Of a stretch of DNA of 64,000 nt, positions 7,997 through 62,613 are shown in pieces. The notes under the pieces are model-generated. The model did not search any database. It was not told the DNA's origin and worked only from the letters and a program-made list of their open reading frames with translations. The position numbers and the translations under genes were made by a program. The DNA lies in the NCBI GenBank assembly GCA_965250115.1, contig CBDFNJ010000001.1, positions 1,450,175-1,514,174 of the forward strand, read 5' to 3'. This DNA is from Candidatus Marinacidobacterales bacterium (lineage in GTDB: Bacteria; Acidobacteriota; Vicinamibacteria; Marinacidobacterales; SMYC01). Position 1 is the first letter of the stretch, and each line of letters begins with the position of its first letter.

Positions 7997-8021
7997 GAGA
8001 ACGATCACGTACCCGACTCAT

Positions 8022-19136: not shown

Positions 19137-20842
19137 TGTGCCAACATCCTTGAGACAATCCGCTCCTTGAAATTAGTGTCGAGGGCGGAGGAGGATCATA
19201 GATGAGTACGTTGATTGAGAGAATGACGTCGGCGAGGTCGGAAGGAGCCCGTAGGGCGACTGGAGATCTCGCCGACCGTGGTGCTGCGGCGGGGGTCTGC
19301 GATCTCGAAGTGAGTGAGAAAGCGAAGCGCCGACGTTTCAGCGCTGAATACAAGCTGCGGATCGTTCGCGAGGCGGACGCCTGCAAGGGTGACGGTGATG
19401 TGGCGGCGCTTCTACGTCGCGAGGGACTGTACTCGTCGCATCTATCGAGTTGGCGTCGGCAACGGGACGAGATCGCCAAGGCGGGATTGACGTCGAGAAA
19501 GCGAGGTCGGAAGGCGAAGGCAGAGGCTCCACGGATCAAGGAGCTCGAGCGCGAGAACGCCCGACTCCAGCGCCGGCTGGCTCGGGTGGAAACGATGCTA
19601 GAGATCCAAAAAAAAGCCTCCGAGCTCCTGGGGATCCCCCTGAACCCGATCGACGACGACGAGAACGATTGATCGTGGCGGCCGAGGAGCTGGCGGGTCG
19701 GATTGGACAAACGGCGGAAGCTTGCGAGGCGCTGGGCGTGTCTCGTTCCACGTTGTATCGTCGACGCCGACCGGTGACGTCCAAGCCGAAGCGCCGTCCT
19801 CGGCCGCAGCGAGCCCTCGACACGACCGAGCGCGAGAGAGTCCTCAGTGCATTGCATTGCGAACGGTTCGTCGACAAGGCGCCGGCCCAGGTGTGGGCCA
19901 CGCTTCTGGACGAGGGAATCTACCACTGTTCGATCCGCACGATGTACCGGATTCTGTCGGAGCACGGAGAGGTGCGTGAGCGCCGGAACCAGCTGCGGCA
20001 TCCGAACTATCAGAAGCCGGAGCTCGTGGCGGAAGCGCCGAACCAGGTTTGGTCGTGGGACATAACGAAGCTGCGCGGCCCGGTCAAGTGGACCTACTTC
20101 TACCTCTACGTGATTCTCGACATCTTCTCCCGGTACGTGACCGGGTGGATGTTGGCTCGGCGAGAAAGCGCCGAGCTCGCCCGTCGTCTCATCAGCGAGA
20201 GCTGCCTCAAGCAGAACATCGAAGCCGACCAGCTCACCATCCACGCAGACCGCGGCAGCTCGATGCGAAGCAAGTCCGTCGCCTTGCTCCTGGCCGACCT
20301 CGGCATAACCAAGACGCACTCGCGGCCGTACGTCTCGAACGATAATCCCTACTCCGAGTCCCAGTTCAAGACGATGAAGTATTGCCCTGAATTCCCAAGC
20401 CGCTTTGGCTGTCTGGAAGACGGCCGCCTGTTCTGCGGCGGTTTCTTCGACTACTACAACAACGCGCACCGGCACTCGGGACTGGGGCTCATGACGCCGG
20501 CCGCCGTTCACTACGGTCGCGCCGACGAGCTCAACGCCGCCCGGCGCCAGGTCCTTCTCGAAGCTCATCGGGCTCACCCCGAGCGCTTCGTGCACGGAAC
20601 ACCTCAACCTCCGGTTTTGCCTCGTCAGGTCTGGATCAACCCGCCGCCCGAGAAAACGACGCCACAGGAGGCCCTAGGAGCCACTTTCTCGGGGCGCCCC
20701 GTACCTGAGCTACCCCCGGATTCAAGCTATCCGGACGCGATCGCGTCGGAACCCAATCGCGACCGCACCGCGCTCACGCCCCGTCCTTCACTGATCGAGG
20801 CTCACTAAATGCAGCCTGCGGGTGTCTCAAAGTTGCTGACAC
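19137..20842 (+). mobile_element. IS3-family insertion sequence (~1.7 kb)
   Basis: Imperfect terminal inverted repeats: TGTGCCAACATCCTTGAGACAATCCGC (19137-) against the reverse complement of 20815-20842 (TGTCAGCAACTTTGAGACACCCGCAGGC). orfA and orfB are joined by an A8G slippery run. No clean target-site duplication is seen. Confidence 0.75.
19202..20808 (+). CDS. IS3-family transposase OrfAB (orfA 19202-19672; orfB reached by programmed -1 frameshift at A_AAA_AAG 19608-19616; DDE/rve integrase core)
   Basis: OrfA has the HTH and leucine zipper (LERENARLQRRLARVETMLEIQKK). OrfB has the rve domain (WSWDITKL...ILDIFSRYVTGW...HADRGSSM...YNNAHRHSGLG). Confidence 0.8.
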
Positions 20843-20977
20843 GTTCCGAACCCGCCGTCAAGACCGAGACCGCTCTCGGCTACCTCGAGGAAGAGGCCAA
20901 GCTCGGCCAGCTCGACCTGGAACTGCTGGATCTTTTTATCGAGGCGAAGGTCTACGAGGAGGGCCTGACGAACTAGC
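20843..20977 (+). pseudogene. displaced 3' end of the same HD-GYP gene
   Basis: Immediately after the IS right end, the reading frame gives RSEPAVKTETALGYLEEEAKLGQLDLELLDLFIEAKVYEEGLTN*. This is the typical HD-GYP C-terminal tail, so the IS inserted precisely inside the gene. Confidence 0.55.
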
Positions 20978-28205: not shown

Positions 28206-28856
28206 TTACGCCGTGTAGACGAGGTGGTGGATGCGGCCGATCTTTCCGCGTTGCGAGAGTCGGTAGAATCTCCTCAGCTCGGGCAGCAACCTCGCGAAGC
28301 GACCTCTCGATAGCGCGGCTTGCACAAAGTGGGAACAATATCGCGAGGCGAGCGAGCTGGCCACCTCGTAGCGCTCGCGTCGGCCGCCCTCGATGTCCGC
28401 GCGGACCTCGAAGTCGCCGAAGAGGCGGTCGAGGAGATCCTTGGGGACCCGGCCTCGGTTCCTCGACGCCAGAAGCAGCGTTGCCGTCACGAACTTGTCA
28501 ACTTCCGCCTGTAGCTCCAGCTCCAGTTCCGTTACGACGCGCTCCCTTGACGCACTGAAGAGAAGGTAGGCAAAGTGGCTGACCTCCTCGATGGCCGTGA
28601 CCAGGGTCTCGAAGCTCTCGGACGTCATTTGCACCGAAAGGTCGATCTCCCGCAGCCGGCCGAGCTTCTCATCGTCGATATAGACTCCGAGCTCGAGCTC
28701 CTCGCCCCGCTCGTTTTGACGAACGAGCACTTTGCTGTGCCTCGGGTCGGCGCCGAAGTGGGCACAGAGGTCTCCCGTGATCAAGAAATCGCGGATATCG
28801 ACCTCGAGCTCCAAACTATAGACCTGATCGATATGCCTGAGAATGGACTCGAGCAT
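28206..28856 (-). CDS. hypothetical protein (216 aa), no recognisable domain
   Basis: A clean ORF with good codon-position GC pattern. It is co-directional with and downstream of the PilB/GspE-like ATPase. Confidence 0.4.
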   Translation of the reverse strand: MLESILRHIDQVYSLELEVDIRDFLITGDLCAHFGADPRHSKVLVRQNERGEELELGVYIDDEKLGRLREIDLSVQMTSESFETLVTAIEEVSHFAYLLFSASRERVVTELELELQAEVDKFVTATLLLASRNRGRVPKDLLDRLFGDFEVRADIEGGRRERYEVASSLASRYCSHFVQAALSRGRFARLLPELRRFYRLSQRGKIGRIHHLVYTA

Positions 28857-28859
28857 GGT

Positions 28860-29447
28860 TCAGTGTATTACGCGCGGCGTCGTGCCCAGCTGAATGCCTT
28901 CGCGTCGAAGTAACGCCTCGCTGCGCCTGCTGCCCGTTTGAAGCCACTTCTCGTAGAGACGCAGAATGCCTCCCACCTCGGAGAGCGCGCTCTCCTCGCT
29001 CACCTCGTTGAGCACGTCGACGAACCGTCCGAACTTCGCGGAAAGCTCGTAATAGACTTCCGCCGCCTCACCAGGGCTGAGACGAGCGGCACGTCCGTAG
29101 GCATAGCATCCCATGCGCACATAGTAGTCGAGATCGACGCGCCGTCGAGCGATGCTATCGGAAAAGAAGCCGGAAACGAACAGCGCCAGATCGCCCGTGA
29201 ACTTCAAGAGCGTGAATCGTCGTCGTCCCTCGCTCTGAAGCGCGTCGCCGAGAATCTCGGCAAGAGTCTGATCTTTGTCGAGCTCCGCTCCCCTATAAAG
29301 ATCGTCGAAGCTCACGAAATTATCGAGAAGCTGTACCAGATAAAAGGAAGAAAGCTCACTCGATGCGAAGCCCTGCCGTGCCATCGCGTTTTCCACGAGC
29401 TCCTTGAAGAGCATCACCGGCGTCTCAGAGTGAACCAGCTTGTCCAT
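28860..29447 (-). CDS. hypothetical protein (195 aa), no recognisable domain
   Basis: A clean ORF 3 bp upstream of the previous one, between the ATPase and hyp-216. Confidence 0.4.
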   Translation of the reverse strand: MDKLVHSETPVMLFKELVENAMARQGFASSELSSFYLVQLLDNFVSFDDLYRGAELDKDQTLAEILGDALQSEGRRRFTLLKFTGDLALFVSGFFSDSIARRRVDLDYYVRMGCYAYGRAARLSPGEAAEVYYELSAKFGRFVDVLNEVSEESALSEVGGILRLYEKWLQTGSRRSEALLRREGIQLGTTPRVIH

Positions 29448-29665
29448 CGCATCACCTCCTCCGCATCTACAGACAGAGAGGCTGCAAATTGCGTGCTACG
29501 AGGTGCCGGGAGAGGCAAAAAGACCGTAAACGTATATTGTTCAGCGTTTTAGTGCGAAGTCCCAGGTCGTCTGGAGGCTTGGGAGAGTGACAAAATGTGT
29601 CCGTTTTGGGAGGCGGTGCCTCAAAGTTTGCGATTAGCAGCCTGGCGAGGCGAGTGCTGAGCGGG

Positions 29666-31258
29666 TCACTCGACGAACGTGACCTTGTTGATATCGGAAA
29701 GCGTCGTCACCCCTGCAAGGACTTTCTCGATGGCCTGTTCTCTCAACGGACGCATCCCTTCCTCGCGCGCGACACGCTTCAGTTCGGCCGTGCTCTCGCG
29801 TTCGAGAACCAGCTCGCGCAATCGATCGGTCAGTCCCAGGAGCTCGCAGAGCGCAGTGCGGCCGCGAAAGCCCGACCCGTGACATTCGTAACAGCCGGCG
29901 CCTTCGAAGAAACGTCCATCGAAGGTAGGATCGAGCAGACCGGAGAGCTCGAGCTCGTCGTTGTCGACTTCGACCTGGCGGCGGCAACGCTCGCAGATGC
30001 GACGCACGAGTCGTTGAGCCATGACGCAGTTCAGGGCGGACACGAAGTTGTAGGGCTCGACTCCCATGTGAAGAAAGCGGCCAATCACATCGAAGGCGTT
30101 GTTGGCATGGACCGTCGTGAACACGAGGTGTCCGGTCAGCGCAGCCTGAACCGCGATGGTCGCGGTCTCGGGATCGCGCACCTCACCGACCATGATCGTA
30201 TCCGGATCGTGTCGAAGGATGGATCGCAGCCCCCGGGCGAAGGTCAAGCCCTTCTTCTCGTTCACTGGAACCTGGGTGATGTGTTGAATCCGATATTCCA
30301 CCGGATCCTCGATTGTGACGATCTTCTGCTCGGCGGACGCGATTTCGGAAAGAGCGGCGTAGAGCGTGGTGGTCTTGCCGCTACCCGTCGGTCCAGTCAC
30401 GAGAACCATCCCATAGGGTTCGCGAATGAACTTTCGCAAGCGTTTGAGCTCGAGATTGGGAAAGCCGAGTAGATCGAGTCTGAGCTCGGAGAACTGCTCG
30501 CTAATGGACTCTTTGTCGAGGATTCGAACGACGACATCCTCACCATAGATGCTCGGCATGATCGAGACGCGGAAATCGATGGGTCGGCCCCTTATCCTGA
30601 GCTTGAATCTCCCATCCTGCGGAATCCGCCTTTCCGCCACGTCCAGCTCCGCCATGACCTTGAGCCTCGAAACGATGGTGGAGTGGTGAATGCGATCGAC
30701 GGGTTCCATAGCGGGATAGAGGACGCCGTCGATACGATACTTCAGAAGGACTTTCTCTTCTTTCGTCTCGACGTGGATGTCGCTCGCCCGACGCTCGAGC
30801 CCATTGAGCAGAAGCGAGTGCACGAGCTTGATGATCGGGGAAGCCGTCTCGGCTTCAGCGTCGAGGTCTCGTTCGTCATCCTCGTCGTCGGCTCTTGCCT
30901 GGAGCTTGAGCTCCTCAGAAGCCTTGTCCAGGAGGAAGGAAGAGCTTCGGTTGCGAGCCAGAATCTCCTCGATCGCGGAAGCGCTCGCGACCTCGATGGT
31001 CAGAGGACGCCCGAGGGTCAGCTCGAGCGCGTCGAGCTCGCCATATACGCTCGGGTCGGAGACGGCGACGACCAGCCTCAGACCCTCCGCTCGCAACGGG
31101 ACAAAGCGGTAGCGAAGAAGGAGGTTCATCGGAACCTCCTGCCAGACCTCAACGTCCTCGCGAAACCCTGTCAAATCGACGAAAGGATACCCGTAGCGCT
31201 CCGCGAGCTCCCGGGCTTGCTCCCCGTCCGTAACGCTTTTCTCGTTTTGGGTCGACAC
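29666..31258 (-). CDS. PilB/GspE/MshE-family secretion ATPase (N-terminal T2SSE_N/MshEN-like domain, Walker A GPTGSGKTTT, C-terminal tetracysteine)
   Basis: It has LVTGPTGSGKTTTLYA, Asp/His boxes, CERCRRQ...CYECHGSG, and an N-terminal GYPFVDL. No GspF/PilC, pilin or secretin genes are nearby. Confidence 0.8.
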   Translation of the reverse strand: MSTQNEKSVTDGEQARELAERYGYPFVDLTGFREDVEVWQEVPMNLLLRYRFVPLRAEGLRLVVAVSDPSVYGELDALELTLGRPLTIEVASASAIEEILARNRSSSFLLDKASEELKLQARADDEDDERDLDAEAETASPIIKLVHSLLLNGLERRASDIHVETKEEKVLLKYRIDGVLYPAMEPVDRIHHSTIVSRLKVMAELDVAERRIPQDGRFKLRIRGRPIDFRVSIMPSIYGEDVVVRILDKESISEQFSELRLDLLGFPNLELKRLRKFIREPYGMVLVTGPTGSGKTTTLYAALSEIASAEQKIVTIEDPVEYRIQHITQVPVNEKKGLTFARGLRSILRHDPDTIMVGEVRDPETATIAVQAALTGHLVFTTVHANNAFDVIGRFLHMGVEPYNFVSALNCVMAQRLVRRICERCRRQVEVDNDELELSGLLDPTFDGRFFEGAGCYECHGSGFRGRTALCELLGLTDRLRELVLERESTAELKRVAREEGMRPLREQAIEKVLAGVTTLSDINKVTFVE

Positions 31259-31452
31259 GATCTAAAACTTCCAGAAACCCTATCGAGCCATGCTAGAGGC
31301 GCGCTCCAAACATTGTCAACTTCAACACTGCTTTGACTTTCCGCGAGAACGCGTGCGACAATGGCTGAAACTCGCTTCCTCCGCGGACGCAAAGTCCGAT
31401 TCGGCACATTTGGGTTTTTATCGCTTCGAAACACCTCGGGGCTGAGCGGAGG

Positions 31453-33883
31453 ATGGATTTTCTCAAGAGCTATCTGCCGGCGCCGGTCGTCGATATCTTC
31501 CTGCCCGTTTTCATCGTCGTCGTGATCGTCGTGATCGTCGCTCTCGTCTATCCGCGGCTCGCCGCGAAGATCAAGGAGACCGGTGCCTGGGACCGCGTCG
31601 TCGACAAGGTAGGCGGCGAGAAGCTCCGGCTCATGCAGTTCGAGCGCGAGATAAGCCGCTTGCAGAAGTCGGGGAATCTCGTCGGCGCCGCGCGCCTCTA
31701 CGAGGAAGCCGAATGGTATCCGGAAGCGATCAATCTATACATAGAAGCCGAAGAGTTCATCACCGCAGGGACGCTCTACGAGCAGCTCGAGCAGTGGGAC
31801 CGTGCCTCCGACATGTACCAGAAAGCCGACGACTGGAAGCGTGCCTCGCGCATGCTCGTCAAAGTCGGAAAGCACGGCGAAGCGGCTAAACACTTCGAGC
31901 AGCACGGCCAGAAGATCGACGCCGCGAAACTGTATCTCGACGCGGGACAATACGATCGCGCTGCCGCGCTCTACGAGGACGTCTCCTAATTTCCCCCAGG
32001 CGGCGAAGTGCTACGAAAAGCTCGGCCAGTACATCAAGGCGGCCGAGAACTACGAACAGCACTGGTCTGCCACGACGTCGGTAGGTGGCAGCGGCCTCAT
32101 CTCCTCGCCCTCCGATCGCGAGGCCAAGGTCGCGTTGCACGCCGGCCAGCTCTACGAAAAGGGCGGTGCTCCCGAACGTGCGGCTGAGCTCTACAAGCGC
32201 GCTGGTCTTTCGAACCAGGCGGCGACGCTCGCCGCCAAAGAAGGGCGTTTCAAAGACGCAGCGGAAATGCTCCTCAAAGAGGAGAAGCTCGAGGAAGCAG
32301 CCGGCATGTTCGAACAGGCCGGCGAGGCCAAGCGAGCCGCGCTTCTGCGTGGCGAGGTGGCCTTTCACCGAGGCGACGCGGCCTTCGCGGCCGACAAGTT
32401 TCTCGAAGGCGGCGACAACCTGCGAGCTGCGGAAATCTACGAATCGATCGGGAACCTGAGCGCCGCTGCGCGCTGCTACGAGGAGAGCGAGGCGCCCATC
32501 CAGGCCGCGAATGTCTACCTGAGAGCCAACGACAAGGACCAAGCGGCGGCCATGTTCGAGCGAGGCCGAGATTTCGAGCAAGCGGCTCGACTCTACGAGG
32601 ATATCGGCACCCTCCCCAAGGCCTCCTCTCTCTACGAACAGAGCGGGCGGCTTTACGAAGCGGGCAAGCTGGCCCACCAGCTCGACGACAACGAACGTGC
32701 GATCGAGCTTCTGCAGCAGATCGACGCAAGCCACGAGCACCACGATTCCGCGACACTCATTCTTTCGCGTCTGTTCATCAAGAAGGACATGCCGGCCCTC
32801 GCGGTGGACAAGCTGCGTCGGCTGCTCGGAGAACAGCAAATCAGCTCGCAGACGCTCAAGCTCTTCTATTGCCTCGGACTGGCTCAGGAGAAGCTTGGCA
32901 AGACGAGTGAAGCGATCGATACGTTCCGCAAGATCATGACGGAGCGCTATGGATACGAAGATGTGGAGCAGCGCATCGCCCGTTTGGGTTCACCGGGGGC
33001 GCCAGATCCCGCACCTCAAGCGCCGACCGCGGCGGAGCTTGCGCAGCCGGCCGTGGCTCCTGCTCCTGCAAGTGCTCCGGCATCCGCTCCAGCCGGGGCG
33101 GCGCCCCGAGCGGCCTCGGCGACCGCCGCTTCTCCGATAGAGCTTGCTGAGGAGCTCGGAAAGGGACTGCTCGGCGTCTCCTACAAGGGGGTCGACACGC
33201 GCAGCGGGCGCCCGGTGGTCGTCAAGCTCCTCCGAGACGACCTGCTCGCGGATCGCGACGTGTTCCAGCAGTTCCTGGCAGAGGCGAAGCTCGCGCGCGG
33301 GCTCGAGCATCCGAGCCTGGTTCGTCTTCTCGGTCTCATCGAGATTCAGGGAAAGAAGGCGGCCGTCAGCGAGTACGTAGAGGGATTCAATTTGACGGCC
33401 TTTCTCGCCAAGAACCAGCGCATCTCTCTCAAACAAGCCGTCGATCTTCTGACCAACCTCTCGGCAGCTCTCGGCTACGCGCACGAGCGCCGTTTGCTCC
33501 ACCGGCACCTCAAGCCGGCGAACATCCTCGTCGCGGGAGGAGGCAAGCTCAGGCTTACCGGTTTCGGGCTCGGAGCCCTTCGGCTCCCCAATTTGGGCCG
33601 CGCCGATGGCTATCCGTCCCCCGAGCTCTTAAGCGGGTCGCCCGTCGACCCGAGGTCGGACATCTACTCCTTGGGCGCCGTGATCTTTCACGCGTTGACT
33701 GGATTCCATCCAGATAGCGAGCAACTGTCTCAGAACGGAGCTTCGGCGCGCCTGAAACAAGTCTTGCCAGAGGCACCGGAAGCGCTCGACCAGATTCTCG
33801 CTCGCTGCCTCATGAAGAATCCTGCCGAGCGTTTCGGCTCTACGAACGAGATCGCCGACGCCGTACGGACCGTGCAAATCTGA
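31453..33883 (+). CDS. membrane-anchored repeat protein with C-terminal Ser/Thr pseudokinase domain (apparent +1 frameshift at ~31987)
   Basis: It has an N-terminal TM helix. Its ~27 tandem 13-aa repeats (AAxxYExxGxxxx) span the ORF1/ORF2 junction, with the repeat register preserved if one T at ~31987 is skipped. A Pro/Ala linker follows. The kinase fold has Gly-loop LGKGLLGVSYKG and Lys VVVK, but HRHLKPAN (HRD to HRH) and GFG (DFG to GFG). Confidence 0.6.
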
Positions 33884-33955: not shown

Positions 33956-34627
33956 ATGACGGTCATGTCGAACACGTGCTGGTCCTGCCAGAAGGTCAAA
34001 GGCAAAAGGGCTTGTCCCGCGCGCGGGGACGAGCTCATCTGCTCGCGATGCTGTGGGACGAAGCGCGGCGTCGAGATCCGATGTCCGAGCGGTTGCCCCT
34101 ATCTCCGCGGAGGCCACGACGCGAAGTGGGAATCCGCCGCCCAGCAGAAAGAGGAAACACGTTTCTTGAGTCACTTCCTGGGCCTTCAGGACCGGGAGGC
34201 GGCCTTCCTGTTCTTCGTGCACCATCTGATCCTCCAGGCAGGCGGACGGCTCGGAACCCTGTCGGACGGCGGGCTCTCGGACGTTCTGGAGTCCACGCTC
34301 AAGACCCTCGAGACCCGCTCCAAGGGCGTCGTCTATCAGCATACCTGCAGCGCATCGGAGCTTCAGCCACTAGCGAACTGGCTCGTGCAGGTCTTTTCGG
34401 CACGCGGCGAGCTCGCGAACGCGCCAGAGGTGTCGGACGATGACGCGATTCGGGTTCTCGGAACGATGCGCCTCGCGGTGGTGGCCCACGAGCAGCACGC
34501 CTCAGCCCGGAGGACCTATCTGGAGACGGCGGTCCGTGTCATGGGCCCGAGTCTTTCGGATGCACCTGCCATCGAGCTGCCGGAGACAATGAGCTTGCCG
34601 AGCGGCGATCGGATCGTGTCAAGGTGA
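33956..34627 (+). CDS. Cys-rich zinc-ribbon protein (hypothetical)
   Basis: An N-terminal CWSCQK...CP...CSRCCG...CPSGCPY followed by a ~170-aa unknown domain. Confidence 0.45.
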   Translation: MTVMSNTCWSCQKVKGKRACPARGDELICSRCCGTKRGVEIRCPSGCPYLRGGHDAKWESAAQQKEETRFLSHFLGLQDREAAFLFFVHHLILQAGGRLGTLSDGGLSDVLESTLKTLETRSKGVVYQHTCSASELQPLANWLVQVFSARGELANAPEVSDDDAIRVLGTMRLAVVAHEQHASARRTYLETAVRVMGPSLSDAPAIELPETMSLPSGDRIVSR

Positions 34628-34696
34628 GCGCCATCCCGATCGGGTCCAGCAGCTCGACCTACGGTATAATGAAAGAAGTTCCACCTAAATTTCCCT

Positions 34697-36844
34697 GTGA
34701 GCGAGGCGGCCTTGGTCGAGATTAGTCACCGCGAGAGGGTCGTCCGGGCCAAGATTATCTATTACGGCCCGGCGGCTGGCGGGAAGACGACGAATCTAGT
34801 CGTGCTTCATCGCTGTGCCGATCCCAAACGCAGAGGCGAGATGGTATCGGTGAACTCGACGCAGGATCGGACGATCCTTCTCGACCTCTTGCCGATGAAA
34901 ACCCCAGCGTTTCGTGGTTACGACCTCCGCTTTCAGGTCATTGCGGTGCCGGGCCAGCGGATGTATGCGGCGAGCCGCAAACTGCTGCTCAACGGCGCTG
35001 ACGCAGTCGTTTTCGTAGCAAACTCCGCCGCGGACCGGTGGGAAGAAACCATTCAGAGTCTCCGCGAGATGAACCAGAACCTGCTCACGCATGGCCTGGA
35101 CCCTGCGACCATCCCGGTCACGCTGCAGTACAACAAGCGCGATCTTCCGGAGGTCACGCCCATGGAAGTGATGGAGCGCACGCTGAACGCGCGGCGCACC
35201 GCCAGTTTTTCCGCGGTCGCCATCCGCGAAGAAGGCGTTTTGGAAACTTTCGCGGCGGCACTCAAACAGACCATGGAGGACATCACCACGCGATTCAAGC
35301 TCGGCGCCAATACGCGCAACGCTCGCTCCATCGAAGAGTGGACGGCCGAGTCCATGCGCGCGATGTTCGAGTGGTCTCCCGTCGCCGACAACGACCTGAT
35401 GTCCGCGGCCAGCGGAGCCACGGCGCCGTCCACGAGTCGCGAAGCCAAAAACCCATCGACAGCGTCGCCCCCCGCAACGCCGCAACAACATACGCGGGTT
35501 GCCGTCAAAGTGCCGGTGGCACGATCCATCGAAGGCGGCTCTTCGCCGTCGGCAGCTACTCCCGCGAGCGATCCCCAGGCAGCCGAAGCCCTCGTCGACA
35601 GCTACGCCCAGGCGGCCGCCGATCTCACGACCGCGCTCGAGGACATGCGGGACCGACGCGAACTGTCGGAGCAGCGTGCGAAGGATCTCGTCGCTCCCTT
35701 CGACGCGGCACAATCGCTTCTTCGCGGCTCTCCGTCGGACGACGTTCTGCGAACCTTGTTGATGCGCATCGCGGAGAGCCTGGGCGCAGTGAGTAGCTCG
35801 CTGTCTCTCGTGAAAGAGAACGAGCTTCGGCCCGTGATCTTGCTCGGTCTTCAGCGAGAGCCACCGTTCTCAACGGTCGATGGCTCCGGTCGTCCTCTCG
35901 CGATGGGATTGCTCGAAAGCGCGAAGCCTCTGGTTTTCGCCCTCGGGGATCCAGGACCCCTGGGCGACGTTCTGGAGAAGAGCGGCGGCAAGCTCACGTC
36001 GATCGTGGCGATCCCAATCCGAACGCCCGAGGCGACGGTCGGGCTCGCGTGCTTCTACCTCGCGCCCGAGTCCGCATCGCCGCACCCCGAGGCCATCGAT
36101 CATCTAGACCGACTCGGCAACGGGATCGCACTCGTCATCGAGCTCGCCGCCGGGCGCATCGCTCGCGAGCGGCTCGGGCTGAGTGAACGCATGGCGCTAA
36201 CGGGCCGCGTCTCCGAGCAGGCCATTTTGGAGATCGGACCGCCCCTCGACAGACTCTTCGCGACTCTAGGCCGCGTTCGCGCGCAGCAGAATGTGCCCGA
36301 TAGTTTTCTCAACGAATTGAAGGGCATGGGTATGGAGCTGTCCTGCGCCAAGAGGTACCGGGACGCGGTGCTCGGGCTCATGGTGGGACAGCCGCCCGCT
36401 ATGGAGCTCGTGCCGCTCGCGAACGTATTCCACGGGGTTCGGGTTTGGACGGCGGATAGTCTCGAGCGCCACGCGGTGCGCCTCGAAACAACACAGCCCT
36501 CCCCGGGAGACCGCGTGAGGACGGACGCGTTCCTCCTTCGGTCGGCGCTCGCCGCCCTCGTCGAGCGTTCCGAGAACGACTTTGCCGGCCACTCGGGAGG
36601 CTTGATTCGACTTTCGTCGAGAATCGATAACGGGCGCGCCTACATACAAATCGCCGACAACGTTGCCGCGATCCGAAACTCCCGTAACGGAGCGGAAGAC
36701 TACGTCGCCTGGACGCTGAACCGCAACTCGAGAGGCTGGCCTTTGTCTTTCGTCGCGAACGTCGTCGCTTACTCACATGGTCAGTGGACGAACTCGGCGA
36801 CCGAGCACGGAAACGAGCTCACCATGATCCTCTCCGCGCAATAA
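34697..36844 (+). CDS. MglA-like Ras-superfamily small GTPase fused to a ~520-aa C-terminal region (GAF-like + GHKL/HATPase-like)
   Basis: The first ~195 aa align motif-by-motif with MglA: YYGPAAGGKTTN (P-loop), DRT (switch I), AVPGQ (switch II), ADAVVFVANS, QYNKRDLP (G4). The C-terminal region has GAF-like segments and GHSGGLIRLSS / NGRAYIQIADNV, resembling GHKL ATPase boxes. Confidence 0.7.
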   Translation: MSEAALVEISHRERVVRAKIIYYGPAAGGKTTNLVVLHRCADPKRRGEMVSVNSTQDRTILLDLLPMKTPAFRGYDLRFQVIAVPGQRMYAASRKLLLNGADAVVFVANSAADRWEETIQSLREMNQNLLTHGLDPATIPVTLQYNKRDLPEVTPMEVMERTLNARRTASFSAVAIREEGVLETFAAALKQTMEDITTRFKLGANTRNARSIEEWTAESMRAMFEWSPVADNDLMSAASGATAPSTSREAKNPSTASPPATPQQHTRVAVKVPVARSIEGGSSPSAATPASDPQAAEALVDSYAQAAADLTTALEDMRDRRELSEQRAKDLVAPFDAAQSLLRGSPSDDVLRTLLMRIAESLGAVSSSLSLVKENELRPVILLGLQREPPFSTVDGSGRPLAMGLLESAKPLVFALGDPGPLGDVLEKSGGKLTSIVAIPIRTPEATVGLACFYLAPESASPHPEAIDHLDRLGNGIALVIELAAGRIARERLGLSERMALTGRVSEQAILEIGPPLDRLFATLGRVRAQQNVPDSFLNELKGMGMELSCAKRYRDAVLGLMVGQPPAMELVPLANVFHGVRVWTADSLERHAVRLETTQPSPGDRVRTDAFLLRSALAALVERSENDFAGHSGGLIRLSSRIDNGRAYIQIADNVAAIRNSRNGAEDYVAWTLNRNSRGWPLSFVANVVAYSHGQWTNSATEHGNELTMILSAQ

Positions 36845-36856
36845 CGAGCGGTCTCG

Positions 36857-37864
36857 ATGCGAGCCCAGGTCATGGTCCTAGGGCCGGTCGAGCGTGAACT
36901 CCGGCTTCACCTCATCGACGACTTGCTGCCCAGTGGGTCGAAGCGCGCTGACGAGATCTCGTGGAGCATCAGCGGTTATTCTCTCGAGCTGGCGGAGCGG
37001 CTTTTCAAGCTCGAGCTCTCGTCCGGACTCATAGCCACTCTGGGCGATACGCCAGAGGATCTACAGATGATCGCGGAGATCCGCAAGCGTGGTGTCCAGA
37101 CCCGCGCCATCCAACAGGGCGGAGCGGGCCGCATGACGGTTCGCCTACGAACACCGAGCCAATCCATCCAAATCGAGCCCGTAGCGCCCGTTGTGCCCCC
37201 CAAGATGCCGGACGTCGTCTCGGCGCTCAGGCAGGCACGCCATCTCCACGTGTGTCCCGAAAGCTCGCTCTCAGGTCCGGTCCGGCAGCGAAACCTCCAA
37301 GCGCTCACCTACGCTCGGCAATCCGGTCTCTCGACCTCCTTGAGCCTTCCAGATCGGCTGGACGCGCCCCGGCAAATCGACGCGGTGGAACGTGTATCCC
37401 TCCTCTCGGAGGTGGACGTCCTCTTCGCACGGGGCAATGTCCTACGGTCCCTGGCCGGAGAGCGCCGGCTGGCTCGCGCCGTAGACGTCCTCTTCGATTG
37501 GGGGGTTTCCGTCGTGGCGGCCTCGCTGGACGCGGGGGGTGTTCGTATCTACGGACACACCGAGGCGGAAAGGATCCCGAGCTTCGGCAACGAGGTGGCT
37601 TCGCCCGGAGCCGCGTTCGCGAGCGGTTTTTTGCTCGGATGGCTCCTCGGATCGCCCTTGACTTGCTGCGGATTAATGGGCGCGGCCGCCGCGCTCCGGG
37701 GCGAGCGTCACAGGCTCCCCGACCGTCGTAGGGTTTCCGGGCGCCTGGGACGCGCTCGCAGCGCTCCGAGCCTGCGGAGGCTGGTGCCAGATCTGATGGA
37801 GGCCCAGAGGGTTTTGTCGCGGAGGAAGCGATTGCCCCCGCGGTCTCGAGCCCGAGGTGTCTAG
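36857..37864 (+). CDS. PfkB/ribokinase-fold protein with degenerate active site (possible pseudoenzyme); 3' end uncertain
   Basis: The N-terminal beta-clasp pattern (MVLGPVERELRLHLIDDLLPSGSK...) and C-terminal VASPGAAFASGFLLGWLLG resemble the DTTGAGDAF anion hole, but with GAGD replaced. Confidence 0.4.
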   Translation: MRAQVMVLGPVERELRLHLIDDLLPSGSKRADEISWSISGYSLELAERLFKLELSSGLIATLGDTPEDLQMIAEIRKRGVQTRAIQQGGAGRMTVRLRTPSQSIQIEPVAPVVPPKMPDVVSALRQARHLHVCPESSLSGPVRQRNLQALTYARQSGLSTSLSLPDRLDAPRQIDAVERVSLLSEVDVLFARGNVLRSLAGERRLARAVDVLFDWGVSVVAASLDAGGVRIYGHTEAERIPSFGNEVASPGAAFASGFLLGWLLGSPLTCCGLMGAAAALRGERHRLPDRRRVSGRLGRARSAPSLRRLVPDLMEAQRVLSRRKRLPPRSRARGV

Positions 37865-38169
37865 TAGCCTGACGTTGCTCGGTGCCTGAAGCTTCGGCGT
37901 TTGCCGGATTCGTTGCGGCTGGCATAACATGAGCGAGTTAGAGATGGTCCCGTTGGCATCTTTGGCAGGGTGCTGAATAGCGTGTGCACCCTGTGCGACC
38001 GCCTCGCGCAGCGAGCCTGTCGAGCGGAGCGCTAGCCTGGCGAAGCCAGGCGCGTTGCAAAGAAGCAGCGAGCATGGCCCGAATGGGCCGGCCGTCCCCC
38101 CAAAGCGAAGAGCGAGGGGAGCCAACGAGCCGAAGAGGCTCCGTTGGCACTAGAGAGGATTAAGCGTAC

Positions 38170-40989
38170 ATGGGTGAGTCATTTCTCAGACGGGTCTTGT
38201 CTCCCGTCGTGACGTTCCGGGAGGGAGAAGCGGTTACCTGCGTCCTCATGTTCGTCTACTCCTTCCTCGTGATGACCGCTTACAACAACATCAAACCTTC
38301 CGCGGCCTCGAAGTTCATCGCCGATCTCGGCGCCGACAATGTGCCCTATGTGATGCTCATCGCGGGTCTCACGATGGGCTTCATCCTGAACTACTACAGC
38401 CGGGGCCTCACGAAAGTACCCAAGCTCTGGGTGCTTCCCGGAACGCAATTGCTCTTGATCGCCATGCTGGTCGGCTTCTGGTTTCTCTTCCAGACGGGCG
38501 AGGCCTGGCAGGCCTGGATCTCGGCGGCGTTTTTTTTCTTCGGCCGGCTTCTGCTGGGCATCTTTCTCATCAGCCAGTTTTGGACCTTGGCCAACGATAT
38601 CTACGACCCGCGGCAAGCGAAACGGGTCTTCGGATTCATCGGCGGAGGCGCGACCCTGGGAGGCATGACGGGATCGGGCCTCACGGCGCTTCTCGTCAAG
38701 CGGGTCGGCACCGAAAATCTCATCCTGTTCAGCGCGGCGGTGCTCGCCTTATGTTTCTTCCTCATCCTGGAAATTCAGAAAAGAACGAAGCGGGAGGGAG
38801 ATACTGAAGGCTCCTTCGAAGCCAAAGGCAGCACCGTCGGAGGCGGAGAAGCGCTCGCCATGCTGCGAAGCTCCCGGCACCTCAAGCTCATCGCTCTGAT
38901 CATCGGGTTCGGAGCCCTCGGCGCCGCGACGCTCGAGCAACAGCTCTACATGGCTTCCGAGGGCGTCCTCGAGGGACAGGACAGCATCACGAGCTTCCTG
39001 GCCGGCATCACGTTCTACATTTCCCTCATCGGCTTCGTGATTCAGGTTTACTTCACTTCCCGCATCTACAGTCTGCTCGGTATCGGGTTCGCACTTGCCG
39101 TACTCCCGGTGACCCTCGGCGCTACGGCGGTGATGATTCTCACTTACCGCGTGCTCTGGGCGTCCAGCGCGGCTCGAGTAGCGGACAGCGCGCTTCGCTA
39201 CAGCCTCGACAAGACCACGCGCGAAACGCTCTTCCTGCCTTTGCCGACGGAGCTGAAGCTGAAAGCAAAAGGCTTCGTCGACGTCGTCGCGGATCGCTTC
39301 ATTGGCAAGGGCATCGGCTCGGCCATCCTGCTGGTGGCCCTCAAGGTCTTCGACGTCTCCTGGTACCACTTGAGCTTGCTCAGCCTCGTATATTGTGTGC
39401 TGTGGCTCGCTCTGACGCGTCTCGCGAAGAAGGAGTACATGGCCGGGTTCCGGCGCAGCATCGAGACCCTCTCGCTCGAACCGGAGAGGCTCTCACCGGC
39501 GGCGGGCGACGCGGCCACTGTCGAGACGCTCGTCGAGGAGTTGGGGAGCTCGGACGAACGACGGGTTCTGCGCTCGATCGAGCTCCTCGAAGCCCTGGAG
39601 AAGCGAAATCTGATAACGCCTCTGCTTCTGCACCACGCTTCGGCCTCGGTGCGTGCGCGAGCGCTGAGAGCCATCCAGGCAGGCCGGCCCGAGATCGTCT
39701 CTCGGTGGCTCCCGGCCGTGGAGCTCGCGCTAAAGGACGAGGACGGCGACGTTCGCGCCGCGGCAGTGGAGGTCATCGCATCGGCTCGTGCCAGTGGCGT
39801 CCTGGACCTGATGCGAGGCTACCTGCACGACCGCGACCACCGCATCGTGGCAACCGCCGCGATTGCGCTAGCGGAGAGCGACGATGAAGCCGATCGAGTC
39901 GCCGCCTACGACACGCTTGAGCGACTGGCCTCGGATACACGAGGCGCTGCTGCAGCGGCACGCCGTGAAGCGGCGCGCTCCATCGTCCGCACGTCCGACC
40001 CGCGCTTCCGCCACCTCCTCATGCCTCTGATGCAGGACGCGGACCTGAGTGTGGCACGCGAGGCCATTCGAAGCGCTCGTCAGTTGGGCGATGACGATGC
40101 CCTCTTCGTGCCCGCGCTCGTTTCCCTGCTGAGACACCGCAGGCTCAAGAACACTGCCCGGGAAGCCCTCGTCAGCTACGGCGAGACCATCATTCCGACG
40201 CTTACCTACTTCCTCGCGGACGACAACGAGGAACCCTGGGTACGTCGACACATTCCCGAAGTGCTCGCCTTGATTCCAGATCGAGCCTCGGTCGAAGCGC
40301 TTCTCGTCTGCCTGGAGAGCGGCGATGGGTTGCTTCGCTACAAGGCGGTTCAGGCGCTCGAACGAATTCGGCGCATGGACCCGGACCGCGAAATCGACCC
40401 GGAACCGGTCCAGCGACAGCTCTTGAAGGAGGTCGCACGCTACTACCGCTACCTCGGCGCGGGCTATGACCTTTTTGACAAAGGCGGGCTCGCGCGCGAC
40501 TCGCTCGCCGGCCAGGCTTTGCGTGAGAAACTCGAGCGCGGGATGGACCGCATCTGCAGGCTCCTTGGTCTCATCCACTCGTTCCAGGACATCCGTGCGT
40601 CCCGATGGGCAATCGAAAGAGGGGACCCTCGCTCCCGAGCAAGCGCTGTCGAGTTTCTCGACAACACGCTTTCGGGGCAGTTCCGCAAGCTTTTTCTTCC
40701 CCTGGTGGACGACGTACCGCAAGGGGAACGGATTCGGAAGGGTAACGTGTTCCTCAAGACGCGTGTTCGCAGCATCGAGGATACGCTTGCGCGGCTCATC
40801 TACGACGACGACGTCGTTGTGGCCGCCACCGCGATCGACGTGATACGAGAGCAAAAGCTATGGTCGCTCGCGCCGGACCTCGAACAGGTGCTTCAGTTTC
40901 GCGATGCGAAGGACTTCGCGGTCTTCGAGTCCGCCTCCTTCGCGCTCGCGGCCTATCGATTGAGAATGGACGAGCCCCGTGCGATTTGA
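38170..40989 (+). CDS. ATP/ADP-translocase-like (NTT/TLC family) 12-TM transporter fused to C-terminal HEAT/PBS-lyase-type repeats
   Basis: The first ~430 aa are polytopic with NTT-like motifs (FWTLANDIYDPRQAKRVFGFIGGGATLGG). The C-terminal ~500 aa are alpha-helical repeats with recurring E/DxxVRxxAxxAL signatures. Confidence 0.65.
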   Translation: MGESFLRRVLSPVVTFREGEAVTCVLMFVYSFLVMTAYNNIKPSAASKFIADLGADNVPYVMLIAGLTMGFILNYYSRGLTKVPKLWVLPGTQLLLIAMLVGFWFLFQTGEAWQAWISAAFFFFGRLLLGIFLISQFWTLANDIYDPRQAKRVFGFIGGGATLGGMTGSGLTALLVKRVGTENLILFSAAVLALCFFLILEIQKRTKREGDTEGSFEAKGSTVGGGEALAMLRSSRHLKLIALIIGFGALGAATLEQQLYMASEGVLEGQDSITSFLAGITFYISLIGFVIQVYFTSRIYSLLGIGFALAVLPVTLGATAVMILTYRVLWASSAARVADSALRYSLDKTTRETLFLPLPTELKLKAKGFVDVVADRFIGKGIGSAILLVALKVFDVSWYHLSLLSLVYCVLWLALTRLAKKEYMAGFRRSIETLSLEPERLSPAAGDAATVETLVEELGSSDERRVLRSIELLEALEKRNLITPLLLHHASASVRARALRAIQAGRPEIVSRWLPAVELALKDEDGDVRAAAVEVIASARASGVLDLMRGYLHDRDHRIVATAAIALAESDDEADRVAAYDTLERLASDTRGAAAAARREAARSIVRTSDPRFRHLLMPLMQDADLSVAREAIRSARQLGDDDALFVPALVSLLRHRRLKNTAREALVSYGETIIPTLTYFLADDNEEPWVRRHIPEVLALIPDRASVEALLVCLESGDGLLRYKAVQALERIRRMDPDREIDPEPVQRQLLKEVARYYRYLGAGYDLFDKGGLARDSLAGQALREKLERGMDRICRLLGLIHSFQDIRASRWAIERGDPRSRASAVEFLDNTLSGQFRKLFLPLVDDVPQGERIRKGNVFLKTRVRSIEDTLARLIYDDDVVVAATAIDVIREQKLWSLAPDLEQVLQFRDAKDFAVFESASFALAAYRLRMDEPRAI

Positions 40990-41878
40990 ACTGCTTGCTC
41001 CCGTTCCTGCGGTCGCTCTCGCGCAAAAGCTGAGACGCATACCTCTATTCCGATTCGCGTCGGTCGACGAGCTCTTTCGCATCGCCACCATCGCTCGCCA
41101 GGTGCGATACCCCGCTCGAGCCATCGTGCAGGAACGCGGAGCACCGGCGGAGCACCTCCAGGTCCTGCTGGAAGGAAGCTTCGAGCTTGAAGAGCAAGAG
41201 GGCAATAGTCTCCTCGAACCGCCAGCGCTCGTGGGCTTTCAGGAGGTTCTGGAAGGCACGACGATTCGGGCAAGTGCACGGGCCAAGGTCGATTCGATCG
41301 CGCTCGTCATGGCGGCCGAGGAGTTTCGTACGCTGCTCTCGGCGAATATCGAGATCGCGCAGGGATTGTTCCGCTTGCTTCTCGAATCGAGCCGCAATGG
41401 GGCGCGACCAAGTGTCGTCGACGTATCGCGCCTCGAAGACTCGAGCGGCGGAGCTACCCTCAAGACCGTGGACAAGGTCCTCTATCTGCAAGCCATCCCG
41501 ATCTTTGCCCGCGCGGATAGTGACGAGCTCTTCGAGCTAGCCGCGATCACCAAAGATCACGAGCTTCAGCCCAACGCCATCTTGTTCTCCGAGGGCGATC
41601 CTGCTTCGATTCTCGCGCTCCTTTCTGGGGAGATCGAGCTCATGCCAGCTTCAGGAGGCGAATCCTTCCAAGTGGCCGCGGGACAGTGCATCGGCGTCAA
41701 CGAGACCCTCGCGGGAGCCTCGTGGCCGTTCAGGGGACGTGTCACCGAGGCGGGTAGGGCCCTCGATATTCATCGCGAGCTGTTTTTCGAGCTCCTGTCG
41801 GACCGGCTCGACCTGCTGCAAACCATCTTCGGTGCCGTCTTCCAGGGGAAGAAGGCGGAAGAGACCAGCGAAACATGA
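40979..41878 (+). CDS. tandem cyclic-nucleotide-binding (cNMP) domain protein
   Basis: Two CAP-like effector domains (IPLFRFASVDEL...; IPIFARADSDEL...) with a GTG start overlapping the upstream stop. No DNA-binding HTH is evident. Confidence 0.6.
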   Translation: MRFELLAPVPAVALAQKLRRIPLFRFASVDELFRIATIARQVRYPARAIVQERGAPAEHLQVLLEGSFELEEQEGNSLLEPPALVGFQEVLEGTTIRASARAKVDSIALVMAAEEFRTLLSANIEIAQGLFRLLLESSRNGARPSVVDVSRLEDSSGGATLKTVDKVLYLQAIPIFARADSDELFELAAITKDHELQPNAILFSEGDPASILALLSGEIELMPASGGESFQVAAGQCIGVNETLAGASWPFRGRVTEAGRALDIHRELFFELLSDRLDLLQTIFGAVFQGKKAEETSET

Positions 41879-62611: not shown

Positions 62612-62613
62612 AA

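What the first reader, a model, noticed from the sequence alone, without database searches (positions are those of the whole stretch)
29666..31258. Orphan PilB/GspE-type ATPase without cognate platform, pilin or secretin genes
The T2SS/T4P motor ATPase family (Walker A, Asp/His boxes, C-terminal tetra-Cys Zn site, N-terminal GspE_N/MshEN-like domain) is present with only two unknown ORFs downstream and the signalling operon upstream. No GspF/PilC, prepilin or secretin genes occur in the 64 kb. Orphan PilB-like ATPases exist (for example in Myxococcus) but are poorly understood.
Basis: partly seen in the sequence, partly recalled or inferred. Interest (0 to 1): 0.5.

Follow-up and report, generated by a model that had tools for sequence, protein, structure and literature searches.

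The report
Pilus-motor ATPase detached from pilus genes
An intact pilus/secretion-type motor ATPase belongs to a lineage of such enzymes in Vicinamibacteria (Acidobacteriota) that always lies apart from pilus genes and usually next to two uncharacterised proteins, so it may have been re-used for another job, although a pilus machine encoded elsewhere in the genome is not excluded.

Summary
Window 29666-31258(-) encodes an intact 530-aa PilB/GspE-family ATPase with Walker A/B, Asp and His boxes and a tetra-Cys site. No platform, pilin, secretin or PilMNOP gene lies in the 64 kb.

The N-terminus has only the alpha/beta half of the MshEN domain. The c-di-GMP-binding four-helix module is absent.

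I compared 168 related ATPases by their gene neighbours. This one belongs to a monophyletic 'O' clade (NJ bootstrap 86-98%; Ca. Marinacidobacterales plus a second Vicinamibacteria group). None of 76 O loci has a pilus gene nearby. All 92 loci of the neighbouring clades show PilC-ATPase-PilMNOPQ-pilin.

Best reading (about 0.45): a diverged PilB paralogue that no longer serves as the pilus-cluster motor and may work with the pair. Main rival (about 0.35): a genuine motor for machinery encoded elsewhere. I could not scan whole genomes, so this stays open. It is a new variant of a known kind, of moderate interest.

The parts
29666..31258 (-). PilB/GspE-family hexameric ATPase gene, 530 aa, member of the 'O' clade (never linked to pilus genes)
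   Evidence: Clade assignment.
30944..31195 (-). N1 / MshEN_C-like alpha/beta domain (residues 22-105). Only 21 residues precede it, so there is no MshEN_N c-di-GMP module.
   Evidence: Pfam PF05157. Alignment to PilB structures starts at their residues 51-73. Motif regex negative. The domain definition comes from PMC5013675. This is the most diverged part relative to cluster-type relatives.
29687..30853 (-). T2SSE ATPase core (N2 + C-terminal domain, residues 136-524). It carries Walker A (30368-30394), Asp box (30293-30322), Walker B (30173-30205), His box (30107-30133) and the tetra-Cys site (29882-29995).
31290..31319 (-). Sigma-70-like promoter match TTGACA-18-TAGCAT, about 32 nt upstream of the ATPase start codon
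   Evidence: This is a consensus match only.
29448..29665 (-). 218-bp spacer between the ATPase and the 195-aa ORF. It carries lineage-conserved elements: the palindrome GACACATTTTGTC (29589-29601) and a -24/-12-like element AGCACGCAATTTGCA (29483-29497).
   Evidence: Alignment of 13 O1 spacers. Counts: palindrome in 14/20 and -24/-12-like element in 12/20 O1 loci, against a 0.8% background. Coordinates. No Rfam match. No terminator-like site on this strand.
28860..29447 (-). 'w195': conserved all-helical 195-aa protein with no known family. Conserved motifs are GDxALFVSGFFxDS, EVSE and LYE(R/K)WxxTGSRR.
   Evidence: The AF2 model has low confidence (pLDDT 54). No PDB or PilC relationship was found.
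28206..28856 (-). 'w216': conserved 216-aa protein with no known family and a zincin-like predicted fold. Conserved residues are E90-E91-V-S93-H94-F95 (28572-28589) and E112-L-E114-L-Q116-A-E118-V-D120-K121 (28494-28523).
31453..33883 (+). Divergently transcribed TPR + Ser/Thr protein kinase gene. It is split into two overlapping frames in this window (31453-31989 and 31802-33883) but continuous in the near-identical L008.
   Evidence: Divergent kinase present in 12/16 O1 loci, 4/21 O2 loci (different architecture) and 0/75 cluster-type loci.

Best explanation
The gene encodes a catalytically intact member of a distinct, monophyletic subfamily (the 'O clade') of PilB/GspE-type hexameric ATPases. 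The clade has so far been seen only in Vicinamibacteria: Ca. Marinacidobacterales (O1) and a second soil group (O2).

It descends from the resident motors of the acidobacterial PilC-PilB-PilMNOPQ-pilin cluster. It has lost all linkage to pilus genes. It has no c-di-GMP module, and its N1 docking domain and linker have been remodelled while the ATPase core is kept.

Most likely it is a paralogue that no longer serves as the motor of that pilus cluster. Instead it would use the same ATP-driven ring cycling on a different partner docked through N1. The best candidates are the two proteins encoded just downstream: a helical 195-aa protein and a 216-aa protein with a zincin-like fold.

That pair has its own upstream control region. 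In O1 this includes a conserved palindrome and a -24/-12-like element. In O1 the ATPase also faces a TPR-Ser/Thr kinase.

Shown here: family, motifs, purifying selection, clade structure, gene-neighbourhood statistics and the fold prediction for w216. Inferred: paralogy, the partner switch, and any physical or functional coupling to the pair or the kinase.
For: 1. Context tracks phylogeny perfectly. Of 168 ATPases, 0/76 O-type loci have PilC/PilM/PilQ nearby and 92/92 of the other clades do.

2. O1+O2 is monophyletic in 86-98% of NJ bootstraps. It never groups with the Vicinamibacterales cluster type (0/100). Its sister is the large cluster-type clade spanning Vicinamibacterales-like and Thermoanaerobaculia-like sequences, and deeper cluster-type lineages lie outside. 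This fits an old split rather than a recent relocation.

3. Divergence is concentrated in N1 and the linker. Identity there is 0.29-0.37 between O and C, against 0.48 between the two C subclades. N2 and the C-terminal domain are 0.68-0.75 for all pairs.

4. The w195+w216 pair lies downstream on the same strand in 33/41 O loci with at least 2 kb of downstream sequence (15/17 O1, 18/24 O2). It is found in 0/74 cluster-type loci. All other neighbours differ between O1 and O2.

5. All three genes are under purifying selection, and the pair has strongly conserved motifs.

6. The ATPase scores below the curated cut-offs of both the PilB and the GspE equivalog models: 539 versus 676 and 535 versus 630.
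Against: 1. No whole genome of an O-clade organism could be scanned, so an unlinked PilC/PilM/secretin/pilin set is not excluded.

2. The pair is autonomous elsewhere. In 3/3 distant members examined it has no PilB-like ATPase within +-10 kb, and the family is large (1684 clusters at 50% identity).

3. The ATPase and the pair are always separated by at least 180 bp. In O1 the spacer carries what looks like the pair's own promoter. Four O2 loci have 2.3-5.9 kb inserted between them. Two O1 loci (L001, with a 95%-identical ATPase, and L007) lack the pair altogether.

4. The tree is NJ on corrected distances and the O branches are long. Long-branch attraction could mimic an old split.

5. The N2 and C-terminal domains are as conserved against the cluster type as the cluster-type subclades are against each other. 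This would also be expected if the protein still turns a PilC-like platform.

6. No interaction was tested.
Confidence: 0.45

Rival explanations
1. It is a bona fide filament-assembly motor whose machinery is unlinked. The O-clade ATPase would still power a type IVa-pilus-like or T2SS-like machine, with platform, alignment complex, secretin and pilins encoded elsewhere in the genome. The downstream pair and the kinase would be unrelated neighbours or, at most, regulators.
For: The closest relatives are all resident motors of a complete PilC-ATPase-PilMNOPQ-pilin cluster. All catalytic motifs, the Zn site and the N1-N2-CTD architecture are kept, under strong purifying selection. N2/CTD identity to cluster-type enzymes (0.68-0.75) equals that among cluster-type subclades. 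The pair has its own upstream elements and exists without an ATPase elsewhere. No O1 genome contig yielded a second, cluster-type ATPase among the best 80 GTDB hits, which fits one motor per genome. From general knowledge, separately encoded PilB-type motors are known in other bacteria.
Against: No pilus gene was found within +-10 to 30 kb in any of 76 O loci. The N1 docking domain has diverged more than between classes of cluster-type enzymes. O never groups with the Vicinamibacterales cluster type, as a relocated orthologue should (0/100). Adjacency to the pair is retained across a deep split while everything else was reshuffled.
Confidence: 0.35
2. It is a diverged ATPase with a non-pilus role unrelated to the pair. 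One possibility is a signalling or regulatory ATPase coupled to the divergent TPR-Ser/Thr kinase operon. Adjacency to w195/w216 would then be synteny inherited from the O-clade ancestor without functional meaning.
For: A divergent TPR-kinase is present in 12/16 O1 loci and the upstream operon is conserved in O1. The pair is autonomous elsewhere and separately promoted. A signalling role of a PilB is reported for M. xanthus (abstract of PMC5544727).
Against: The kinase link is weak outside O1: 4/21 O2 loci, with a different domain order. Ser/Thr kinases are abundant in these genomes. The M. xanthus case involves the resident pilus motor, not an unlinked paralogue.
Confidence: 0.15
3. It is a decaying remnant of a lost pilus system.
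For: The window carries several disrupted genes and IS elements.
Against: The ORF is intact with all motifs. There are 31 synonymous versus 13 non-synonymous differences to L008. Identity within O1 is 75-77% and within O2 83% across many genomes.
Confidence: 0.02

Closest known systems
Cluster-embedded PilB-like ATPases of Acidobacteriota (Vicinamibacterales, Thermoanaerobaculia; e.g. P0095/L006)
   Same: They share 57-66% identity and the same N1-N2-CTD architecture without MshEN_N. They have the same motifs and Zn site and a similar length of 540-560 aa.
   Different: Those genes always sit between PilC and PilM in a PilC-ATPase-PilM-N-O-P-PilQ-p155-pilin cluster (92/92), whereas this clade never does (0/76). 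The N1 domain and linker are only about 30-37% identical. The pair w195/w216 is absent from their loci.
Type IVa pilus assembly ATPase PilB (Geobacter 5tsg/5zfr, M. xanthus 3jc8; NCBIfam TIGR02538)
   Same: These are the best solved-structure matches (E about 1e-125) over residues 9-528. The ATPase core and tetra-Cys site are the same.
   Different: The protein scores below the equivalog cut-off (539 versus 676). It lacks the first 50-70 residues of these PilBs, the part corresponding to the c-di-GMP-binding MshEN_N. It is not linked to pilC, pilT or pilM-Q.
Type II secretion ATPase GspE/EpsE/XpsE (4pht, 1p9r, 2d28; TIGR02533)
   Same: It has a similar size and the N1E-N2E-CTE layout without a c-di-GMP module. 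Its score is nearly equal to that for PilB (535 bits).
   Different: The score is below the cut-off (630). No GspF/L/M/C/D or pseudopilin genes are nearby.
MshE-type c-di-GMP receptor ATPases (V. cholerae MshE, PMC5013675)
   Same: They share the Pfam MshEN (PF05157) match and the ATPase core.
   Different: The 53-residue MshEN_N module with two RLGxx...LxxxLxxQ motifs is absent. Only the MshEN_C half is present.
Zincin/gluzincin metallopeptidase catalytic domains (M1 aminopeptidase N, LTA4 hydrolase, M3, thermolysin), compared with the neighbour w216
   Different: There is no HExxH. The motif is E-E-V-S-H here and E-G-V-S-H in 122/142 family representatives, so the general-base Glu is not conserved. 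Foldseek and sequence profiles find nothing. The protein is a stand-alone 216 residues. Residue-level superposition could not be inspected.

Membership tests
Type IVa pilus assembly ATPase PilB (TIGR02538 equivalog) | T2SSE ATPase core with Walker A, Asp box, Walker B and His box | tested here: met
   Pfam T2SSE 1.2e-129. Motifs located.
Type IVa pilus assembly ATPase PilB (TIGR02538 equivalog) | C-terminal tetracysteine (Zn) motif | tested here: met
   C422, C425, C456, C459. These are invariant in alignment A1.
Type IVa pilus assembly ATPase PilB (TIGR02538 equivalog) | Score at or above the curated equivalog cut-off | tested here: not met
   539.2 bits versus a cut-off of 675.65.
Type IVa pilus assembly ATPase PilB (TIGR02538 equivalog) | Encoded with, and acting on, PilC platform, PilM-Q and pilins | tested here: inconclusive
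   None in the 64-kb window or in 76 related loci. Genome-wide presence could not be tested.
Type II secretion ATPase GspE (TIGR02533 equivalog) | Score at or above the curated equivalog cut-off | tested here: not met
   534.6 bits versus a cut-off of 630.25.
Type II secretion ATPase GspE (TIGR02533 equivalog) | N1E-N2E-CTE architecture without a c-di-GMP module | tested here: met
   One PF05157 domain, a linker and T2SSE in 530 aa. Weak match to the XpsE N-domain 2d28.
Type II secretion ATPase GspE (TIGR02533 equivalog) | Operon with GspF, GspL/M, GspC/D and pseudopilins | tested here: inconclusive
   Absent locally. The whole genome could not be tested.
MshE-type c-di-GMP receptor ATPases | Tandem 24-residue motifs RLGxx(L/V/I)(L/V/I)xxG(L/V/I)(L/V/I)xxxxLxxxLxxQ in a four-helix MshEN_N subdomain (PMC5013675) | tested here: not met
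   Only 21 residues precede the MshEN_C-like domain, and a stop codon lies upstream. The regex was negative in all 121 sequences. Alignments start at residue 51-73 of canonical PilBs.
PilT/PilU retraction ATPases (TIGR01420) | Score above the cut-off, with no N1 domain and no tetra-Cys | tested here: not met
   161.8 bits versus a cut-off of 319.1. The N1 domain and tetra-Cys are present.
Acidobacterial cluster-embedded PilB-like motors (C type) | Gene lies between PilC and PilM in the PilC-ATPase-PilMNOPQ-pilin cluster | tested here: not met
   0/76 O-type loci versus 92/92 C-type loci.
Acidobacterial cluster-embedded PilB-like motors (C type) | Falls inside the C-type sequence clades | tested here: not met
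   O1+O2 form their own clade (86-98% bootstrap). O+Cvic was found in 0/100 replicates.
Zincin (gluzincin) metallopeptidases (for neighbour w216) | HExxH zinc-binding/catalytic motif | tested here: not met
   EEVSH here. The wider family has E-G-V-S-H in 122/142 representatives.
Zincin (gluzincin) metallopeptidases (for neighbour w216) | Thermolysin-like catalytic-domain fold | tested here: inconclusive
   [not shown]

The most novel reading that the evidence does not exclude
The O-clade enzyme may be a pilus-independent, cytoplasmic PilB-type ring ATPase. It would have been captured by a widespread, undescribed two-protein unit: a helical w195 and a zincin-like w216 with an E-x-x-S-H / ExExQxExDK signature. 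The ATPase would drive or gate that unit's activity, for example through ATP-dependent remodelling or substrate delivery to a metallohydrolase-like enzyme. Control would come from a dedicated upstream promoter and, in Marinacidobacterales, from a TPR-Ser/Thr kinase. That would be a new use of the secretion-ATPase motor outside any filament machine.
Probability: 0.25. Interest if true: 0.75.

Novelty: new variant of a known kind. Interest (0 to 1): 0.5.

Why it matters
PilB/GspE ATPases are understood almost only as motors that turn a membrane platform to assemble pili or pseudopili. A whole clade that has stayed intact under purifying selection while permanently separated from every pilus gene would be an unusual case. 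That clade has also remodelled only its docking domain and is tied to a conserved pair of unknown proteins. It would be a natural example of this motor being redeployed, and a handle on what the docking domain specifies.

The analysis also exposes a large family pair with no Pfam model (at least 1684 clusters at 50% identity). One member has a confident fold prediction and an invariant acidic/His constellation, which makes the pair a candidate for functional study in its own right.

If the rival holds instead, the result is ordinary. It would add one more lineage with a separately encoded pilus motor.

Tried and rejected
- **Exact-sequence lookup.** Looking up the window ATPase found nothing.
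- **Matching contig lengths across search lists.** I tried to find PilC or cluster-type ATPases on the same contigs as O-type genes this way. No lengths were shared, so co-existence is neither shown nor excluded.
- **GTDB scan.** It returned only 5 O1 genomes. It is therefore not a valid absence test.
- **Concatenated w195+w216 query.** It ran into an apparent length filter of at least 55% of query length. It recovered mostly over-long gene calls and frameshift-merged 'fusions' from noisy assemblies. I do not count these as natural fusions.
- **w195 structure.** The alignment was too shallow (pLDDT 54), so no fold search was run.
- **w216 against the AlphaFold database.** The afdb50 library was unavailable.
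- **Other w216 searches.** Foldseek against PDB found nothing significant. PDB profile searches for both proteins found nothing. Pfam found nothing, even for distant members.
- **Soluble PilC hypothesis.** hhalign of w195 and of w216 against PilC gave probability below 1%, so this idea is rejected.
- **Anti-phage defence.** PADLOC gave only generic kinase hits, so this is rejected.
- **RNA element in the spacer.** Rfam found none.
- **Plasmid collection.** It holds no w216 homologue.
- **Literature.** Searches for Marinacidobacter, Vicinamibacteria pili and orphan PilB gave nothing specific.
- **pyrK-pyrD-pyrF as a functional partner.** Rejected. This linkage is specific to O1 and absent in O2.
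Full report
**1. The observation**

The ORF at 29666-31258(-) is 530 aa. It starts at a GTG, and a TAG lies in frame two codons upstream, so no longer N-terminus is possible. Pfam gives T2SSE (1.2e-129, residues 136-524) and PF05157 'MshEN' (3.8e-16, residues 22-105). Walker A, the Asp box, Walker B, the His box and the four cysteines are all present.

NCBIfam scores the protein almost equally as PilB (539 bits) and as GspE (535 bits). Both scores are below the curated equivalog cut-offs of 676 and 630. The best solved relatives are Geobacter and Myxococcus PilB, Thermus PilF and Vibrio GspE.

I scanned about 60 ORFs across the 64 kb with Pfam or NCBIfam. I ran tblastn with PilC, PilM, PilN, PilO, PilP, PilQ and a pilin from a related cluster. 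I also looked for prepilin leader motifs. No platform, alignment-complex, secretin or pilin gene is present.

**2. The N-terminal domain**

According to PMC5013675, c-di-GMP is bound by the four-helix MshEN_N subdomain (MshE residues 1-64). That subdomain carries two 24-residue RLGxx...LxxxLxxQ motifs. MshEN_C is a separate alpha/beta subdomain.

Here only 21 variable residues precede the MshEN_C-like part. Alignments to canonical PilBs begin at their residues 51-73. A regular expression for the motif finds nothing in this protein or in 120 homologues (alignment). The c-di-GMP idea is therefore negative. The layout (N1, acidic linker, N2, CTD) resembles GspE as much as PilB.

**3. Who it is and where its relatives sit**

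Homologues are Acidobacteriota proteins. A scan of GTDB species genomes found a 97%-identical copy in a MAG named Candidatus Marinacidobacterales (L008). Its +-10 kb is colinear with the window at 96% nucleotide identity. The order belongs to class Vicinamibacteria.

A 65%-identical homologue (P0095) lies inside a complete cluster: SLT - PilC(T2SSF) - ATPase - PilM - N - O - P - secretin - 155-aa protein - prepilin. I then combined 80 GTDB loci, 80 metagenome loci and the earlier look-ups. The ATPases fall into the following groups.

| Group | Loci | Source | Identity to window ATPase | Pilus genes nearby |
|---|---|---|---|---|
| O1 | 26 | the window and Marinacidobacterales-like sequences | 67-97% | none |
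| O2 | 50 | soil metagenomes; one member labelled 'Vicinamibacteria bacterium', GCA_035514635.1 | 61-66% | none |
| Cluster-type clades | 92 | Vicinamibacterales-like, Thermoanaerobaculia-like and others | 57-66% | PilC/PilM/PilQ in every case |

Context follows sequence type without exception: 0/76 O-type loci have PilC/PilM/PilQ nearby, against 92/92 of the others. A Paraburkholderia megaplasmid gene with the same cluster layout and a Ralstonia T2SS-like gene served as outgroups.

**4. Phylogeny**

NJ trees on Kimura-corrected distances give O1+O2 as a clade in 86-98% of bootstraps. O never groups with the Vicinamibacterales cluster type (0/100). In most replicates its sister is the large clade containing the Vicinamibacterales-like, Thermoanaerobaculia-like and most other cluster-type sequences. 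Two deeper cluster-type lineages branch outside.

The cluster-embedded state is therefore ancestral and the O state is derived, with a single origin. The split looks older than the divergence of the cluster-type enzymes of two classes. This favours an old paralogue over a recently relocated orthologue. The O branches are long and the method is simple, so long-branch attraction is not excluded.

Per-domain identities show where O diverged.

| Comparison | N1 | Linker | N2 / CTD |
|---|---|---|---|
| O versus C | 0.29-0.37 | 0.30-0.32 | 0.68-0.75 |
| Between the two C subclades | 0.48 | 0.52 | 0.73-0.75 |

In GspE the N1 domain docks on GspL. This is established knowledge and was not tested here. 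A remodelled N1 with an unchanged motor is what a change of docking partner would produce.

**5. The two downstream ORFs**

Both are real. They are conserved from O1 to O2 at about 40% identity and carry sharp motifs. They differ from the L008 copies mostly by synonymous changes.

Among O loci with at least 2 kb of downstream sequence, the pair is present on the same strand in 33/41 (15/17 O1, 18/24 O2). It is present in 0/74 cluster-type loci. Family clustering of all neighbours shows that the ATPase, w195, w216 and (partly) a kinase are the only families shared by O1 and O2 loci. The pyrK-pyrD-pyrF genes that follow in the window are specific to O1.

The two ORFs are tightly coupled to each other, with a 3-nt gap in the window and a 4-nt overlap in O2.

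Three facts weaken a strict functional link to the ATPase.

- The gap between the ATPase and w195 is always at least 180 bp. Four O2 loci carry 2.3-5.9 kb insertions there.
- In O1 the spacer holds a conserved palindrome GACA-N5-TGTC and a -24/-12-like element ([GT]GCACG-N4-TTGCA), 45-95 nt before w195. This suggests the pair has its own regulated promoter.
- A profile of w216 finds 1684 clusters (at 50% identity) among 1.84 billion representatives. In the three distant members whose contigs I could read, a w195-like and a w216-like gene are adjacent with no PilB-like ATPase within 10 kb.

In addition, a 95%-identical ATPase (L001) and a 67%-identical one (L007) lack the pair. The pair is thus an autonomous, widespread two-gene unit. 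Its linkage to an ATPase is specific to the O clade.

**6. What the pair might be**

Neither protein matches Pfam, NCBIfam, PADLOC or PDB sequences. Neither is related to PilC by profile comparison.

The invariant residues fit that fold's layout. E90, S93 and H94 lie on the long central helix. E112/E114/Q116/E118/D120/K121 lie at the start of the next helix, and E114 is 20 residues after H94, as in thermolysin. However, the motif is not HExxH. It reads EEVSH here and EGVSH in 122/142 representatives. Foldseek finds nothing. I could not inspect the superposition.

I therefore call w216 'zincin-like fold, non-canonical site, activity unknown'. The w195 model is unreliable (pLDDT 54) and only indicates an all-helical protein.

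**7. The kinase**

A divergent TPR-Ser/Thr kinase faces the ATPase in 12/16 O1 loci. It does so in only 4/21 O2 loci, where the kinase domain comes first, and in 0/75 cluster-type loci. In the window the gene is split between two frames, whereas L008 has one continuous ORF. I treat the kinase link as a feature of the O1 lineage.

**8. Weighing the explanations**

The data show a distinct, conserved subfamily that left the pilus cluster once and has stayed apart. It changed its docking domain and is habitually followed by the same two genes. I favour a diverged paralogue that no longer acts as the cluster motor and may act on or with the pair (about 0.45).

The main rival is a genuine motor whose machine is encoded elsewhere (about 0.35). 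It is supported by the ancestry, the intact motor and the autonomy of the pair. It could not be tested because no tool allowed a whole-genome scan. Indirect attempts through shared contig lengths failed. The GTDB scan was truncated and blind to O2.

A kinase-linked signalling role with meaningless synteny to the pair gets about 0.15. Decay is excluded.

**9. Novelty**

No paper in the library describes this clade or the pair. It is a new variant of a known kind, namely the PilB/GspE family. It would become considerably more interesting if genome scans show no platform protein, or if the ATPase binds the pair.

Noticed in passing
[not shown]
   Followed up: partly
window 29448-29665 (palindrome 29589-29601; -24/-12-like element 29483-29497): The spacer upstream of w195 carries elements conserved across Marinacidobacterales-like loci. 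GACA-N5-TGTC lies about 155-170 nt upstream of the start codon, and [GT]GCACG-N4-TTGCA lies 45-95 nt upstream. The second resembles a sigma-54 promoter with one mismatch in the GG. Sigma54_activat genes occur near the module in L004/L005. These elements are largely absent in O2 and in distant pairs.
   Followed up: partly
L006:8123-19469 and 74 further loci (L013-L087); L088 (Paraburkholderia megaplasmid): A very conserved compact cluster is present across Vicinamibacterales-like and Thermoanaerobaculia-like genomes: SLT - PilC - ATPase - PilM - PilN - PilO - PilP - TPR/secretin - 155-aa protein - prepilin, followed in L006 by a Big_1/PKD protein. No PilT lies nearby. A similarly ordered cluster sits on a Paraburkholderia megaplasmid.
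   Followed up: partly
window 19134-20848: A 1715-bp insertion relative to the near-identical L008 carries an rve-family integrase/transposase ORF (19450-20808). It is an IS element specific to this genome.
   Followed up: partly
window 7944-9040; 17199-19205; 31453-33883: Several genes appear disrupted. Meth_synt_2 is split over two ORFs. The GAF and HD_5 parts, a single 653-aa gene in L001, are separated by an in-frame stop. The TPR-kinase is split by a frameshift but continuous in L008. The cause is either sequencing indels or recent pseudogenisation.
   Followed up: partly
window 33956-41878 (+): An operon is conserved upstream in O1 loci. It encodes a 223-aa unknown, a 715-aa unknown (weak GAF and EF-G-like N-terminal hits), a PfkB kinase, a 939-aa MFS/TLC-like transporter fused to HEAT repeats, and a cNMP-binding protein. 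It is followed by a Metallophos+TPR protein.
   Followed up: no
window 43672-44787 (-); 62129-64000: Further mobile elements are present. One is a DDE_Tnp_1 transposase. Another is a group II intron reverse transcriptase/maturase running off the window end (63212-64000), next to a DUF222/HNH-like ORF with a weak IscB match (62129-62989).
   Followed up: no
window 51528-54185 (+) and 12780-13787 (-): An 885-aa ORF and a 335-aa ORF have high third-position GC content but no Pfam or NCBIfam match.
   Followed up: no
one search hits P0241-P0245, P0285, P0293, P0315: Apparent w195-w216 'fusion' proteins occur in long-read metagenome assemblies. Most show an unalignable middle segment, consistent with frameshift-merged gene calls. 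P0241 may be a true in-frame fusion.
   Followed up: partly
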